Below, piece by piece: positions 21,593-55,870 of a stretch of DNA of 64,000 nt. The translations under genes were made by a program, and so were the position numbers. The notes under the pieces were generated by a model. The model had not been told where the DNA came from and searched no databases. It saw nothing but the letters and a program-made list of their open reading frames with translations. This stretch comes from Gekko japonicus (Eukaryota): the NCBI RefSeq assembly GCF_001447785.1, contig NW_015176494.1:167468-231467 (forward strand). Direction: 5' to 3'. Numbering within the stretch: position 1 is the stretch's first letter; each line of letters starts with the position of its first letter.

Positions 21593-22516
21593 CCATAATT
21601 TTTTTAAGAGCCCCTCCCGAGAGCTGGGGGAGCCAGAATGACCTCTCGCGTGTGATGTCCGAGCAGCATCACACGCAAGAGGTGGAATTTGCCCCTACAA
21701 GTCGAAGGCCACTACCCCGGGGCTCAGGGAAGCAGGAGAACGGTTCCCCCCGCCCCCTGCGTTGCAGCCGCCGCCGAGAACAGTGGACAAATTCCACCTC
21801 TCGCGTGTGATGTCCGAGCGACGTTGCCGCTCCAACATCACACACAAGAAGTCATTCTGCCTCCCCCAGCTCTCGATAGCTCTTTAAAAAGTTATGGCCG
21901 CCGCCGCTGTTCTCTGCGGCAGCTGCGACGCCCGCGCGGGGGGGACGACGACACATTCCCTTGCCTCCTTGAGCCGCGGGGTGGTGGCCTTGGAATCCTA
22001 GGGGCAAATTCCACCTCTCATGTGTGATGTCCAAGTGGTGTTGCCGCTTGGACATCACAGGCGAGGTCATTCTGGCTCCCCCAGCTCTTCTTAGAGGTTC
22101 TTTAAAAAGTTATGGCCGCTGTCGCTGTTCTCGGCGGCAGCTGCGACACCCACATGGGAGGGAGGAGCGGCGTGAAACGCTCCCTTGCCTCCCTGAGCCC
22201 GAGGGGGGGGTGGCCTTGGACTCGTAGGGGCAAATTCCACCTCTCGCGTGTGATGTCCAAGCGCCGTTGCTGCTCGGACATCACACGCGAGAGGTCATTC
22301 TGGCTCTCCCAGCTCTCGGGAGGGGCTTTTTAAAAAGTTATGGCCGCCGTCGCTGTTCTCGGCGGCAGCTGCGATGCCTGCGCGGGGGTGGGAGGGGCAG
22401 GGCAAAACGTTCCCTTGCTTCCCTGAGCCTCGGGGTGGTGGCCTTGGACTCGTAGGGGCAAATTCCACCTCTCGCGTGTGATGTCCGGCGGCAACATCAC
22501 ACGCAAGAGGCCATTC
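21593..22516. repeat. CpG-rich ~220-228 bp tandem array with an internal hairpin per unit; first unit inverted
   Basis: Direct units start at about 21788, 22005, 22231 and 22459 (caaattccacctctc); 21593-21786 is a reverse-complement unit. Confidence 0.9.
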
Positions 22517-38124: not shown

Positions 38125-38329
38125 CAGTGTTCCCTCTAAGCTGAGTTAGTGTGAGCTAGCTCACAGTTTTTAGCCTCCAGCTCACACATTTTTGTCTCAG
38201 CTCAGGAAGGACGGCTCCAGAGCAAACTAATTTATGCAGTAGCCAAATCGCGCGCTCGCAACTATAATGCCAGTAGCATACAAAGTAAAAATTTTGCTCA
38301 CAGGACCCCACAGCTTAGAGGGAGCATTG
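38125..38329 (+). mobile_element. hAT-type MITE family A
   Basis: TIRs present; TSD not recognisable. Confidence 0.85.
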
Positions 38330-38664
38330 CGGTAGCATCCTTGATTCTCACATTTTACAGAGTGCTCTTTCAGGGAAGGAGAAAGGAAGCAAGAAAGCTG
38401 CTGCTCTTCTGGCCTGGGGTCAAGCTGGTCTTCCTGCAAGAAAGGAGTGTGACCTCCCCATGACCCTTGCAGTTTACAGAAGCCAAAGAATTCTTCCTTA
38501 CATGTCTTTAATCGGCATGTCCCGTCCTGGCTACACCATTAGCTATTGTAAATGCTCCCAATGGCCTTTTAAAGATATTTTATATTTATATCTTCTTTAT
38601 TTATATTTGTCTTTATACTTGCATTATTCAGAAGTTCTTTTGGGGAAACAGAGGCCATTCCATA

Positions 38665-38875
38665 TGAACATAAGAAGCAGGTTTTTACTGAATCAGACTG
38701 TTGGTCCATTTAGCTTCCTCCTATCTACGGGGCTGGCAGCCCTTCTCCAAGGTCTTAGGCAGAGACAGATTCCCCCCTCACCTGCTATCTCCAGTCCTTT
38801 GAAGTGGGATGCCAAGGACTGAAATCAGCAGAGTATTCTGCATGCAAAGCAAGCGTTCTACTGCTGAGCCACTGA
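38665..38875 (-). mobile_element. old tRNA-derived SINE (same family as 49781-49997)
   Basis: Minus-strand gtggctcagcagtagaacgcttgctttgcatgcaga head. Confidence 0.55.
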
Positions 38876-39522
38876 TAACCAGCTTGGAGACACCATGTCA
38901 CCAAACACCTTTTTGGAATAGGTCCAAGAAAGGAAACACAAGCCTCTGTTAGCTTCTCCAGCAGAATTGGGGGGGGGGGGTTGTTTTGCTGCTTTGTAAC
39001 TGAACTGCCAGACATTTTGTGAGTGTATTTCTTAGTCTGTTGCAGCAAAATAAAATGGAATGCTGGTAGGCACCTCTCCTTGCATCCGATGAACTGAGTT
39101 CTGACTCATGAAAGCGAACCCCGGAATAAATGTTAAGACTATAAGATGCCACTGGACTTCTGTTTTATTTTGTGCGTACATGAGGGCGTCTGCGGGTGTG
39201 TAAACCGTTGTGCAATTTTCCTCTTGAGGACAAGGGCAGAAATGAATTTGCGGAAGAGCCCCCACCCCCACCCCCAAATCCTCCCTTTTCCTCAGCAATC
39301 TTTTTTCTTTTCTCTCCCATTCTTTTGCAGCGAACATCTCACTGTCAGAGAGAGCCTGAGGGACACTAGGACCCAGAGGCCGCCAAGCAGCAGAGGCAGG
39401 CTCCTGCTCTGACATCTTCCCTGCCTCTGCAGCCTTCCTCTGCTGATCTCCTTCCATGGTGACTGACCACCGCCGACCCAGCCCAGGTGCCAGACCGCGG
39501 GAGGAGCAGCGCTCTGACCCCA

Positions 39523-39642
39523 ATGGCCTCTCCCAGGACAGTCACCATCGTGGCCCTCTCGGTAGCCCTGGGGCTCTTCTTTGTCTTCATGGGGACCATC
39601 AAACTGACCCCTCGGCTCAGCAAAGATGCTTACAATGAAATG
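39523..39642 (+). CDS. TMEM35A: TMEM35A (NACHO) coding exon 1, upstream duplicate copy A
   Basis: [43 protein letters not shown] followed by a gtgagt donor; coding sequence identical to copy B. Confidence 0.8.
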
Positions 39643-40228
39643 GTGAGTAGCTCGGCTAGGGTGGGAGACATTTTGCTGGCACTGGCAGCGTTCCCCAAAC
39701 TGAACTGCCAGACATTTTGTGAGTGTATTTCTTAGTCTGTTGCCGCAAAATAAAATGGAATGCTGGTAGGCACCTCTCCTTGCATCCGATGAACTGAGTT
39801 CTGACTCATGAAAGCGAACCCCGGAATAAATGTTAAGACTATAAGATGCCACTGGACTTCTGTTTTATTTTGTGCGTACATGAGGGCGTCTGCGGGTGTG
39901 TAAACCGTTGTGCAATTTTCCTCTTGAGGATAAGGGCAGAAATGAATTTGCGGAAGAGCCCCCACCCCCACCCCCAAATCCTCCCTTTTCCTCAGCAATC
40001 TTTTTTCTTTTCTCTCCCATTCTTTTGCAGCGAACATCTCACTGTCAGAGAGAGAGAGAGCCTGAGGGACATTAGGACCCAGAGGCCGCCAAGCAGCAGA
40101 GGCAGGCTCCTGCTCTGACATCTTCCCTGCCTCTGCAGCCTTCCTCTGCTGATCTCCTTCCATGGTGACTGACCACCGCCGACCCAGCCCAGGTGCCAGA
40201 CCGCGGGAGGAGCAGCGCTCTGACCCCA

Positions 40229-40348
40229 ATGGCCTCTCCCAGGACAGTCACCATCGTGGCCCTCTCGGTAGCCCTGGGGCTCTTCTTTGTCTTCATGGGG
40301 ACCATCAAACTGACCCCTCGGCTCAGCAAAGATGCTTACAATGAAATG
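40229..40348 (+). CDS. TMEM35A: TMEM35A (NACHO) coding exon 1, copy B (contiguous with intron 1)
   Basis: Same 40-aa N-terminus; gtgagt donor at 40349, phase 0, joins in frame to 45975. Confidence 0.95.
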
Positions 40349-41971
40349 GTGAGTAGCTCGGCTAGGGTGGGAGACATTTTGCTGGCACTGGCAGCGTTCC
40401 CCGGGTCTGCCTGCTTCTCCCGTCATGAGCTGCCCTAGCTGTGGATGTGCCAAGGCTGGGGGTGGAGGGTGGGGAATGGGTACCACAAACAGCATCTTTG
40501 GTTGGCAGGGAAGCCCAAATCTCACCCACTTGCTGCTCAGCTCCCCTTAGCTGTCAATCAGTGGTTAGATCCCTCTGGCTTCCTATTCCCCCCTATTGCT
40601 TCTTTCCCCCCCCCCCCCAAAGCAAGAGAAGGGAAGGAGGATGGAGAAAATATGGAACGGAGAGGGCTGTCCATAAACATGTGAAATTCTTGCTTTAAAT
40701 GAGATGTACCAGGGCATGGCAAGGATGCCCATATTTTCCATTCTTTCTGTATACGGGGAGCAAGATAATACAGGACCCCAAAGGGATGCCTTAAGATGAT
40801 ATGGGGCCGGGGGGGGGGGGGGGGGGGGTGTGTCCAAGGGCAAGGCCAGCAATATCTGGTCCTCTGAAGTGGCCTGCCTCAGGCAGCTGATTTGGGGATA
40901 CTATTAACCAATTATTGTTAATTACCTTTACAAGAGGGGTCATTTGGATGACCTGTCTGGGGCATTAGAAAGGTCTCCAGCCTCATCAGGCAAAGGGTAA
41001 TTTACATGCTGCCCCCCACCAGAGAAGATTCTGGAAAATGACACCTTTGGATTCTCTCTCAGCCAGGGATTTCTGGCTGAGGAAGTGCAGTGTCTCTCCC
41101 TGTAGCTTGGATGCTTTCCACCCTTTCCTATCCTGGCTCCACAAAATCTGATAGTGAGCCCTGTGGGCAATTGGAGCCCAGTTGCCCCTCAACCATTTAA
41201 GGCTTTCCTTTCCTGGTTTGCTAGGATTGTTTTTCCAAGGTGAGAAACACACCACCATGGAAGTTTCCAGCATGTTCTGGTATTACTCCTGATATACTCT
41301 CCTCCCTAGGGAAGCAGATGAATGAATTGTAGTAGTTCTGTTCATTGCTAAGCTGCCTGAGGGGAGGCCTGGCAAAATAACTGTCCTCGTGAGGTATAAA
41401 GAGAAAGGGTAGCTGACTGAAATAGCCTAGGCTGGTTTTAAAATCCTAACCTAGTAAACCCCCTTTTCTTGTGCTACTGTCTATTAATTTAAATATGCCT
41501 CAGTGTTACCAGCAGTGGTGATTCTCTGTGATGTCACTTTTTGGAATTTTTCTGTATCCTTTTTTTAGATGTAGTATTTTTTAAACAAACCCACTGTTGT
41601 TAGTTGCTTTACTCTGTAACATTCTAGAACTCTGGTTTCAATCCTCATTCCAGAGGGGGAACCTTCTTTAGATCTGAGTGTTGCTTCTCCCACTTTGCCT
41701 ATCTATGGAGTGGTGCTCGCCCACTCTGGATGGACTGAGTTCTCTCAAACTGGTTTTGCTTACAAACTGGCCTCTCTTTGTAACATCTCTCCACTCTGTT
41801 GCTCGTAACATTAAATGTAAATACCGTATATCTGCTATGGGATGTGTACTTCATGCATCTGGCTCTGCCTCATGCAGGCTTATGCTGAAATAAATCTTAC
41901 TAGTCTTTAAAACTGCTGTGGGGCTTCTCTGTGATTTTGGATTCCGATAATATCTCCAAAAAAAAAACCCA

Positions 41972-45974: not shown

Positions 45975-46361
45975 AAACGAGCCTACAAGAGCTACGTCCG
46001 CGCACTGCCCATGCTGAAGAAGATGGGGGTCAACTCCATCATGCTGCGCAAGAGCATCGGCACCCTGGAGGTGGCCAGTGGCATCGTCATGACGCTGGTC
46101 CCTGGGCGCCCCAAGGACGTGGCCAACTTTGTGCTGCTGCTGCTGGTCCTGGCTGTGCTCTTCTTCCACCAGCTGGTGGGCGACCCACTGAAACGCTATG
46201 CCCACGCCCTGGTCTTTGGGATCCTCCTGACCTGCCGCCTGCTGATCGCCCGTCAGCCGGAGGAGCCACTGCCCGAGAAGAGGACCCTGTCGGTGAATGG
46301 CGAGGAGCAGCCACTTCTTGCAGAGGAGGCTCCGGAGAAGGGCAAGATCAAGGTGTCCTAG
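45975..46361 (+). CDS. TMEM35A: TMEM35A coding exon 2 (nicotinic receptor assembly chaperone NACHO; 168 aa total)
   Basis: ttgcag acceptor; [12 protein letters not shown]...GRPKDVANF...[25 protein letters not shown]...EKGKIKVS*, ending in a dilysine-type ER-retrieval C-terminus. Confidence 0.97.
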
Positions 46362-46674: not shown

Positions 46675-46928
46675 ATGGCTGAATTGCTTAAGCTGACCTG
46701 CCTCTGCAACAGCTTGTATCCTTCAAGGGCAAAAAGGAGCACAGGAGGCCTAGATCCTGTGATCTGCACACGTCTCTGATCCTCTCCCCTCTCTGCCAAG
46801 CATCTAGCACTGGAGGGACAGACCCCCCCCCCCCCCACCTGAAATGAACTTTTTGTCCTGCTTCACTATGAGCCATGGCTGAATTGCTTAAGCTGACCTG
46901 CCTCTGCAACAGCTTGTATCCTTCAAGG
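46675..46928 (+). repeat. perfect 54-bp direct repeat in TMEM35A 3'UTR (46675-46728 and 46875-46928)
   Basis: atggctgaattgcttaagctgacctgcctctgcaacagcttgtatccttcaagg occurs twice, 200 bp apart. Confidence 0.9.
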
Positions 46929-47309
46929 CCAAACATCTGTCTGTGCTGCTGCCAAAAAGATCAGAGACCGCTCATTGCCTGCCTAGAAATAAATATGTTT
47001 TTTCCCACTATGCAGTTGCTCAGACTTGAAAGAGCAACAGGTTGCCGTGGCTGGGGTGGGTGAGGGCTTGGAGTGAAAGGCCACCTCCTTTGCCCACTGC
47101 GCTTGTCAATCTGACGAGCTCAAACGGAATGGAGTCCCTGTTCAGAAGCTGCTTCGGTTCTGTTAGTGCTGCACTTGGAAGGGGGAACAGAAGGAGAGGG
47201 GGAAACGGTCATCCGGGGAGAAATGTGTTTTTGGTTTTTCAGTGTGTTGCCTTTCTTGGTATTGTCTGGTTGACATCCTCCCTTCCTCCCCCTTTTTTTA
47301 ATTTATGAC

Positions 47310-47459: not shown

Positions 47460-47662
47460 NNNNNNNNNNNNNNNNNNNNNNNNNNNNNNNNNNNNNNNNN
47501 NNNNNNNNNNNNNNNNNNNNNNNNNNNNNNNNNNNNNNNNNNNNNNNNNNNNNNNNNNNNNNNNNNNNNNNNNNNNNNNNNNNNNNNNNNNNNNNNNNNN
47601 NNNNNNNNNNNNNNNNNNNNNNNNNNNNNNNNNNNNNNNNNNNNNNNNNNNNNNNNNNNNNN
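47460..47662. other. assembly gap (203 N)
   Basis: Run of n. Confidence 1.
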
Positions 47663-54994: not shown

Positions 54995-55870
54995 CAGATG
55001 GGATTGTATTCCCTCTTAAGGAGCAGGTTTGTACCTTTGGGCTGCTACTGGACAAGAGCCTCCTGTTGGATAAGCAGGTGGCAGTAGTGGCCAGGGGTGC
55101 TCTTCAGCTGGTGAGTCAGCTGCAACCCTTCATAGGCAGAAAAGATCTTGCCACTCAGGTGCATGCTCTGGTAACATTTAGATTAGATCCCTGCAATCAC
55201 CTGTATTGTACCTTGGGGCTGCTACTGGACAAGAGCCTCCTGTTGGATAAGCAGGTGGCAGTAGTGGCCAGGGGTGCTCTTCAGCTGGTGAGTCAGCTGC
55301 AACCCTTCATGGGCAGAAAAGATCTTGCCACTCAGGTGCATGCTCTGGTAACATTTAGATTAGATCCCTGCAATCAGCTGTATGTGGAGCTGCCTGTCTG
55401 GAAGCTTCAGCTGGTACAGAATGCTGCAGCCAGAGTGTTGAGTGGGTCATAGGGACCATATCACTCCAGTCTTGTTCCACCTATACTGGCTTCCAGTTTG
55501 CTTCCAGGGTCTATTCAAGGTGCTGGTATTGACTTTTAAGGGCCTGTCTGGCCTGAGACAAATATACCTTAAGAAGCTAGACAGATGACAAACTGAGAAA
55601 GGGCCTCAGTTCTAGGGACCAAAACTTTGGAACTCCCTTCCAGGGAGATTCGTCCATCTCTCTCTCTATCAGTGTCTTTCACCAGCAGGTGAAGAGTTTT
55701 TTGTTTCATCTGGCATATCCCCAATAACGGTTATTGGCTGTCCTTCTAGTGTTGTTCGTTTATTTGTTTTTAATTGAATTTTATGGTTTTAACTGTATTT
55801 AATTGCTTTAAAGTTTTTCTGTTTGCCAACTTTTAAATTCTGATTGAGTGGAAAGGCGGAATAAAAATGT
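54995..55870 (+). mobile_element. L2 LINE 3' fragment with 177-bp internal tandem duplication (55029-55383)
   Basis: LVTFRLDPCN, KLQLVQNAAARVL, HLYWLPV; the unit is repeated at 55029 and 55206. Confidence 0.85.

What the first reader, a model, noticed from the sequence alone, without database searches (positions are those of the whole stretch)
38998..40402. TMEM35A/NACHO has two intact, near-identical promoter + first-exon cassettes in tandem
Seen: a 699/705-bp tandem duplication (1-bp insertion at the junction, 39697) copies ~520 bp upstream of the ATG, the whole 120-bp coding exon 1 and its GTGAGT donor. The copies differ by 3 substitutions and a (GA)n length change, all non-coding, so both can splice to exon 2 and give the same protein. 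Known: NACHO is the ER chaperone required for alpha7 and other nicotinic receptor assembly. Inference: a very recent partial duplication that could alter expression through dual start sites or transcriptional interference. The alternative is that both haplotypes were assembled in tandem.
Basis: partly seen in the sequence, partly recalled or inferred. Interest (0 to 1): 0.7.

Follow-up and report, generated by a model that had tools for sequence, protein, structure and literature searches.

The report
Likely false duplication of NACHO exon
The start of the nicotinic-receptor chaperone gene NACHO appears twice in a row in this draft lizard genome, but other animals of the species carry it once and carry the letters that tell the two copies apart as ordinary variants, so the doubling is likely an assembly error that laid one animal's two alleles end to end.

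Summary
The tandem pair is in the sequence as described: 38998-39696 and 39698-40402, three substitutions, (AG)4 against (AG)7, one extra A at 39697. The gene is TMEM35A/NACHO.

Public runs do not support a duplication in the species. No contig or read crosses the junction in any of the 6 runs that held the locus. In one animal, two contigs bridge left flank to copy and copy to right flank, at about flank depth. Both states of all three substitutions occur in other animals (one site by inference), in mosaic combinations, so the copies look like two alleles.

Best reading (0.8): a heterotype false duplication. A real duplication private to the sequenced animal, formed between its two homologs, is not excluded (0.15), because that animal's reads could not be tested. 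Near-identical tandem pairs are common in this assembly (10 in 1.2 Mb outside the window). RNA shows one ordinary spliced transcript. An earlier scan note reported a similar doubled exon (KCNH6) elsewhere in this genome (unchecked). Low interest.

The parts
38998..39696 (+). Copy 1 of the unit (alleles A, C, (AG)4, C); likely one allele of a single-copy locus
39697..39697 (.). Single extra A at the junction; no run laid covers it
39698..40402 (+). Copy 2 of the unit (alleles C, T, (AG)7, T); likely the other allele
39073..39173 (.). Fragment of a dispersed repeat inside the unit (same piece at 39773-39873 in copy 2); it takes up part of the supposed promoter
   Evidence: 42 of 44 listed matches lie elsewhere in G000, all within query bases 174-276
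39523..39642 (+). Coding part of exon 1, copy 1 (40 aa), followed by the GTGAGT donor at 39643
40042..40228 (+). Transcribed 5' untranslated region, laid on copy 2; RNA cover begins at about 40042-40070
   Evidence: X3 contig aligned from 40049 with 7 more letters; X23 depth rises from about 40050
40229..40348 (+). Coding part of exon 1, copy 2 (same 40 aa), followed by the GTGAGT donor at 40349; the donor is used in RNA (copy of origin cannot be told)
   Evidence: 11 X23 reads and 1 X3 contig continue into exon 2
45975..46361 (+). Exon 2 coding part (128 aa plus stop), single copy; the spliced product is 168 aa

Best explanation
The pair is likely a heterotype false duplication: the sequenced animal was probably heterozygous over the TMEM35A/NACHO promoter and first exon, and the assembler likely wrote its two alleles one after the other. 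The gene itself is an ordinary two-exon TMEM35A. RNA starts about 180 nt before the ATG and splices from the exon-1 donor to exon 2, giving a 168-aa NACHO. Shown: the pair in the assembly; single passage through both boundaries in animal X1; no cover of the junction; the variants in other animals; the splice. Inferred: the genotype of the sequenced animal and the assembler's error. The extra A may be one more heterozygous base at the end of copy 1 (the matching base, G at 40403, is in a CpG); this is untested and no run showed it.
For: (1) The junction is uncovered; depth 0 at 39721-39745 in 4 of 4 DNA-type runs; X1, X2 and X16 stop at 39696 (25 of 49 bases of the bin) and X19 at 39686; depth 0 at 39640-39678 in 4 of 4 runs (X22 laid nothing and is no test); X1 and X23 cover starts at 39698 (20 of 39 bases). 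Contigs as short as 31-84 letters are listed in these runs, so a short junction piece could have shown. (2) Positive evidence of one copy in X1. A 563-letter contig runs from 38556 to 39117, 442 bases in the left flank and 120 in the unit. A 750-letter contig that left copy 1 at 39696 with 195 unlaid letters runs unbroken from 39842 to 40602 into the right flank. Depth is 60.3 against 47-55 on left-flank contigs. X2 and X19 contigs also bridge the left boundary unbroken (38556-39110; 38541-39066). (3) The differences are shared polymorphisms. Site 39366/40072: C in X1, T in X2, X3 and X16, one read of each in X23. Site 39231/39931: C in X1 and X2, T in X3. Site 39044/39744: C in X1, A in X2 (inferred from the change tallies, not from a listed row). 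AG repeat: 4 units in X1, 6 in X2. X1 and X2 each mix copy-1 and copy-2 states. (4) The copies differ at 3 of 699 bases; X1 differs from copy 1 at 7 of 555, so the copies lie within the allelic range. (5) G000 is fragmented (191,500 contigs). False exon gain by heterotype duplication is a documented error class (PMC9516828, sections 8 and 17 read).
Against: The reads of the sequenced animal were not tested, so half depth and discordant pairs, the defining criteria, remain open. X1 and X2 differ from both copies at several sites (39180, 39185, 39472, 39489) and may come from another population, so a private duplication would be invisible in them. Contigs show presence, not absence. There is no N gap at the junction; the nearest is at 47460. 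RNA depth at the intron start was nil, so RNA is a weak test of the junction. X23 has one C and one T read at 40072, which fits two active copies as well as a heterozygote. X3 has a low-depth (3.2) contig over 39834-40018 with the copy-2 allele, which could be read-through from copy 1. X2 depth over the unit (46-68) is 4-6 times its left-flank depth (11), which is unexplained, although its contig crosses the boundary unbroken and nothing covers the junction. The survey found 22 of 34 tandem pairs below 98% identity, so real small tandem duplications do occur in this lineage, and it found no assembler signature at junctions.
Confidence: 0.8

Rival explanations
1. A real, very recent tandem duplication private to the sequenced animal or its population, formed between the two homologs of a heterozygote (non-homologous joining or template switch, with one added base), so that each copy carries a pre-existing allele. 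Two promoters would lie 700 bp apart. Copy-1 transcripts would run through the copy-2 promoter and could splice to an acceptor-like site in copy 2, giving early stops, so the effect on NACHO level could be nil or negative rather than a doubling.
For: The junction is clean, without Ns and with one added base. Older tandem pairs show the process is active. X23 has both alleles, 1 read each, and X3 has RNA-type cover upstream of the main 5' end. It explains the shared alleles as well as the artefact does. Acceptor-like sites at 39996, 40031 and 40139 have 17, 18 and 15 pyrimidines of 20, against 15 at the true exon-2 acceptor, and give ORFs of 80, 54 and 49 aa.
Against: No junction in 6 of 6 informative runs, including X3 and X23, whose covered bases match the window at sites where X1 differs. 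It needs a rarer event (between homologs, no homology) caught in the one animal sequenced.
Confidence: 0.15
2. A real duplication on one chromosome whose copies then diverged by new mutation, fixed or common in the species.
For: Both copies are intact and 98.7% identical. X2 depth is high over the unit.
Against: X1 passes through the unit once. Both states of each substitution occur in animals lacking the junction, and the copy-2 T at 40072 is shared with another species (X16), so it is not a new mutation.
Confidence: 0.05

Closest known systems
Heterotype false duplication / false exon gain (Ko et al. 2022, PMC9516828; abstract and sections 8 and 17 read)
   Same: Adjacent near-identical copies of part of a gene in a fragmented assembly, differing at allele-like sites; a single copy elsewhere.
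   Different: No scaffold gap between the copies here. The paper's criteria use reads of the assembled animal (low depth, gap or depth gap, discordant pairs); only other animals' contigs and reads were laid here.
TMEM35A / NACHO, chaperone of alpha7 nicotinic receptors (PDB 9h9e_B; PMC7175337, abstract read; PMC11565801, search listing only)
   Same: Exon 1 matches residues 1-40 (39 of 40 identical) and exon 2 residues 41-167; CENP-I exons follow downstream on the same strand, as beside human TMEM35A (recalled).
   Different: 168 aa against 167, with a divergent C-terminal tail. Chaperone activity in this animal is assumed from homology, not tested.
Small non-recurrent tandem duplication that copies a promoter and first exon (general class, recalled)
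   Same: Head-to-tail unit of 0.7 kb, no flanking homology, one added base.
   Different: No independent molecule shows the junction, and the copy differences pre-exist as alleles.

Membership tests
Heterotype false duplication (PMC9516828) | Depth over each copy at or below half the diploid depth in the assembled animal's reads | not testable with these tools
   No run known to be that animal was available. X1 shows no doubling on the collapsed unit (60.3 against 47-55), but contig depth is not copy number.
Heterotype false duplication (PMC9516828) | [quoted passage not shown] | tested here: inconclusive
   No N gap. Zero cover across the junction in 6 of 6 informative runs, but these are other animals.
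Heterotype false duplication (PMC9516828) | Discordant read pairs or long molecules joining flank, one copy and flank | tested here: inconclusive
   Two X1 contigs bridge the two boundaries in single passage; no single piece spans both; not tested in the assembled animal.
Heterotype false duplication (PMC9516828) | Copies differ by genuine haplotype variants, not sequencing errors | tested here: met
   Both states of 3 of 3 substitutions occur in X1, X2, X3, X16 or X23; the 39044 site is inferred from change tallies.
Real tandem duplication | Junction present in independent molecules | tested here: not met
   0 of 7 runs laid cover it; X22 held nothing; RNA depth in the intron is very low. Not met in other animals; the assembled animal is untested.
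TMEM35A/NACHO | Full-length sequence match to NACHO | tested here: met
TMEM35A/NACHO | Two coding exons spliced after codon 40; CENPI as downstream neighbour (both recalled for mammals) | tested here: met
TMEM35A/NACHO | Promotes assembly of alpha7 nicotinic receptors | not testable with these tools
   Shown in mouse (PMC7175337, abstract); assumed here by homology.

The most novel reading that the evidence does not exclude
A just-born duplication between homologs that puts two different NACHO promoter alleles in series on one chromosome. The upstream copy would occlude the downstream promoter and lose part of its own output to acceptor sites in the second copy, making a natural dosage variant of a chaperone that limits alpha7 nicotinic receptor assembly.
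Probability: 0.15. Interest if true: 0.35.

Novelty: not a real feature. Interest (0 to 1): 0.08.

Why it matters
As a likely artefact it matters only as a warning: near-identical tandem pairs are frequent in this assembly (10 of at least 100 bp and 98% identity in 1.2 Mb outside the window), so doubled exons or promoters here need read support before any biology is attached. If real, it would be a private structural variant, a small natural test of tandem-promoter interference at a gene whose loss abolishes alpha7 receptor binding in mouse brain (PMC7175337, abstract). It would not be a new kind of system: the coding sequences are identical and no new protein is expected.

Tried and rejected
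Assembler signature at junctions: 5 of 35 tandem pairs have a 1-base spacer (A, A, T, C, G) and 17 of 35 have a junction overlap, so there is no recurring '+A' mark. Identity distribution as a test of artefact: 12 of 34 non-array pairs at 98% or more (2 of them in the window), 9 at 95-98%, 13 below; a continuum that does not discriminate. One array row was dropped; the 120 stretches come from 5 scaffolds, not a random sample, and two overlap by 2.5 kb. A displaced second allele of the right flank elsewhere in G000: none. The junction elsewhere: none. Pfam on the 40-aa exon: 0 families. X22: 0 reads laid, no test. No listed holder was on record as RNA; X3 is treated as RNA only because its contig is spliced. 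Allele-specific expression: only 2 reads cover 40072. The idea that the extra A is a terminal SNP: no run showed A at either boundary. Literature: 'TMEM35A'+'duplication' 7 papers, 6 listed, none about this by title or abstract start; 'TMEM35'+'gecko' 0. A search for the share of duplications formed between homologs gave 3 listings, none read or used. Earlier scan notes near this place or on these words: none.

Full report
Observation. Copy 1 is 38998-39696, there is an extra A at 39697, and copy 2 is 39698-40402; identity is 98.7% and neither edge has microhomology. The differences are 39044 A/39744 C, 39231 C/39931 T, 39366 C/40072 T and (AG)4 against (AG)7. Each copy holds 525 or 531 bp upstream of the ATG, an identical 120-bp coding part and 54 bp of intron from a GTGAGT donor. 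The unit occurs at full length only here in G000, a 2.49-Gb assembly in 191,500 contigs. About 100 bp of it (39073-39173) is a dispersed repeat fragment (42 of 44 listed matches). The only N run in the window is at 47460-47662.

Gene. The 40 aa match PDB 9h9e_B, 'Novel acetylcholine receptor chaperone', at 39 of 40 residues. Exon 2 at 45975-46361 matches residues 41-167, is single-copy and completes a 168-aa product. CENP-I exons lie downstream on the same strand, from about window 56860; that CENPI neighbours TMEM35A in human is recalled. That the animal is a lizard, probably a gecko, comes from earlier unchecked notes. In mouse, tmem35a knockout abolishes bungarotoxin binding in brain (PMC7175337, abstract only).

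Junction test. One search listed 24 runs, and 7 were laid. On 38300-39745 (X1 and X2 of organism A, X16 of B, X19 of C; all contigs) the last bin, 39721-39745, has depth 0 in 4 of 4 runs. X1, X2 and X16 cover exactly 25 of the 49 bases of the bin before, so they stop at 39696 (arithmetic); X19 stops at 39686. The X1, X16 and X19 contigs continue for 195, 178 and 740 letters that are not the junction. On 39640-40790 (X1, X3, X22, X23) the first bin has depth 0 in 4 of 4. X22 laid nothing and is no test. X1 and X23 cover begins at 39698. The same 750-letter X1 contig now runs unbroken from 39842 to 40602, through the end of the unit into the right flank, and a 563-letter X1 contig joins the left flank to the unit (38556-39117). 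X1 depth is 60.3 on the unit against 47-55 on left-flank contigs. X1 therefore has one copy.

Allele test. If the copies had diverged after duplicating, their differences should be private to carriers. They are not. At 39366/40072, X1 has C, while X2, X3 and the other species X16 have T, and X23 shows one read of each. At 39231/39931, X1 has C, X2 has C (its contig has only three other differences, all accounted for) and X3 has T. At 39044/39744, X1 has C and X2 has A; this is inferred from the change tallies, since no row was listed. The AG repeat has 4 units in X1, 6 in X2 and probably 6 in X3. X1 and X2 each mix copy-1 and copy-2 states. X1 differs from copy 1 at 7 of 555 bases, more than the copies differ from each other (3 of 699). 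The two copies thus look like two alleles of one polymorphic locus.

RNA. X23 (51 raw reads laid) and an X3 contig cover from about 40042-40070 to 40348; 11 X23 reads and the X3 contig continue directly into exon 2. This is one ordinary transcript with a 5' UTR of about 180 nt; which copy it comes from cannot be told. Two of the three substitutions lie upstream of the main RNA cover.

Results against this reading. The sequenced animal's reads were not tested. X1 and X2 differ from both copies at several sites and may be from another population. Contigs show presence, not absence. There is no gap at the junction. RNA gives little power there. X23's C and T reads, and a low-depth X3 contig over 39834-40018 with the copy-2 allele, would also fit two active copies. 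X2 depth over the unit (46-68) is well above its left-flank depth (11); library bias is possible but was not shown. A survey of 1.264 Mb (the window plus 120 stretches from 5 scaffolds) found 35 head-to-tail pairs of at least 100 bp. One was an array and was dropped; 12 of 34 are at least 98% identical (10 outside the window, 2 of those over 500 bp) and 22 are older. Such pairs are therefore ordinary here, real ones exist, and no assembler signature marks this junction.

Mechanism. Most likely (0.8) the assembler failed to collapse two alleles and wrote them in tandem, the heterotype false duplication or false exon gain of Ko et al. (PMC9516828; abstract and sections 8 and 17 read). Their criteria need reads from the assembled animal, so membership is probable, not proven. 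A real duplication between homologs, private to this animal or population, explains the alleles equally well and stays at 0.15. If so, the outcome need not be twice the same protein: copy 2 has acceptor-like sites at 39996, 40031 and 40139, as pyrimidine-rich as the true exon-2 acceptor, and splicing from the copy-1 donor to them gives ORFs of 80, 54 and 49 aa (use untested). A fixed duplication that diverged in place is contradicted by X1 (0.05).

Novelty and verdict. Searches for a report of this duplication showed none in the held library; most subscription papers are not held, and no supplements were read. The feature is probably not real. Interest 0.08, or 0.35 if junction reads are found.

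Noticed in passing
window 55029-55383: A second near-identical tandem pair (177-bp period, 98.3%) in the same window, inside what looks like a retroelement remnant (not classified); real or false not tested.
   Followed up: partly
window 40162 (and 39456): An upstream ATG in the transcribed 5' UTR, 67 nt before the main ATG and out of frame, opens a 60-codon ORF that overlaps the start of NACHO; it could dampen translation. Conservation not checked.
   Followed up: partly
window 40007-40031 (and the same site in copy 1): A strong pyrimidine tract plus CAG (18 of 20) just upstream of the RNA 5' end; it could serve an alternative upstream non-coding exon. No such splice was listed (15 loose-end rows not shown).
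   Followed up: partly
window 46675-46733 and 46875-46933: A 59-bp direct repeat (98%) 200 bp apart, downstream of the stop codon in the probable 3' UTR.
   Followed up: no
L112 6008-8847 (G000:C16784:291468-301467): Three separate tandem pairs (412, 433 and 328 bp; 96-98%) within 3 kb.
   Followed up: no
L060 3283-7596; L093 3459-5426: Larger near-identical tandem pairs (2.1 kb and 1.0 kb, over 99%), candidates for the same kind of false duplication.
   Followed up: no
window 39142-39696, run X2: Contig depth over the GC-rich 5' end (46-68) is 4-6 times the left-flank depth (11) with no junction contig; unexplained.
   Followed up: no
window 21788-22486: A 228-bp unit in about 3 copies (81% matches) with inverted self-similarity nearby.
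   Followed up: no
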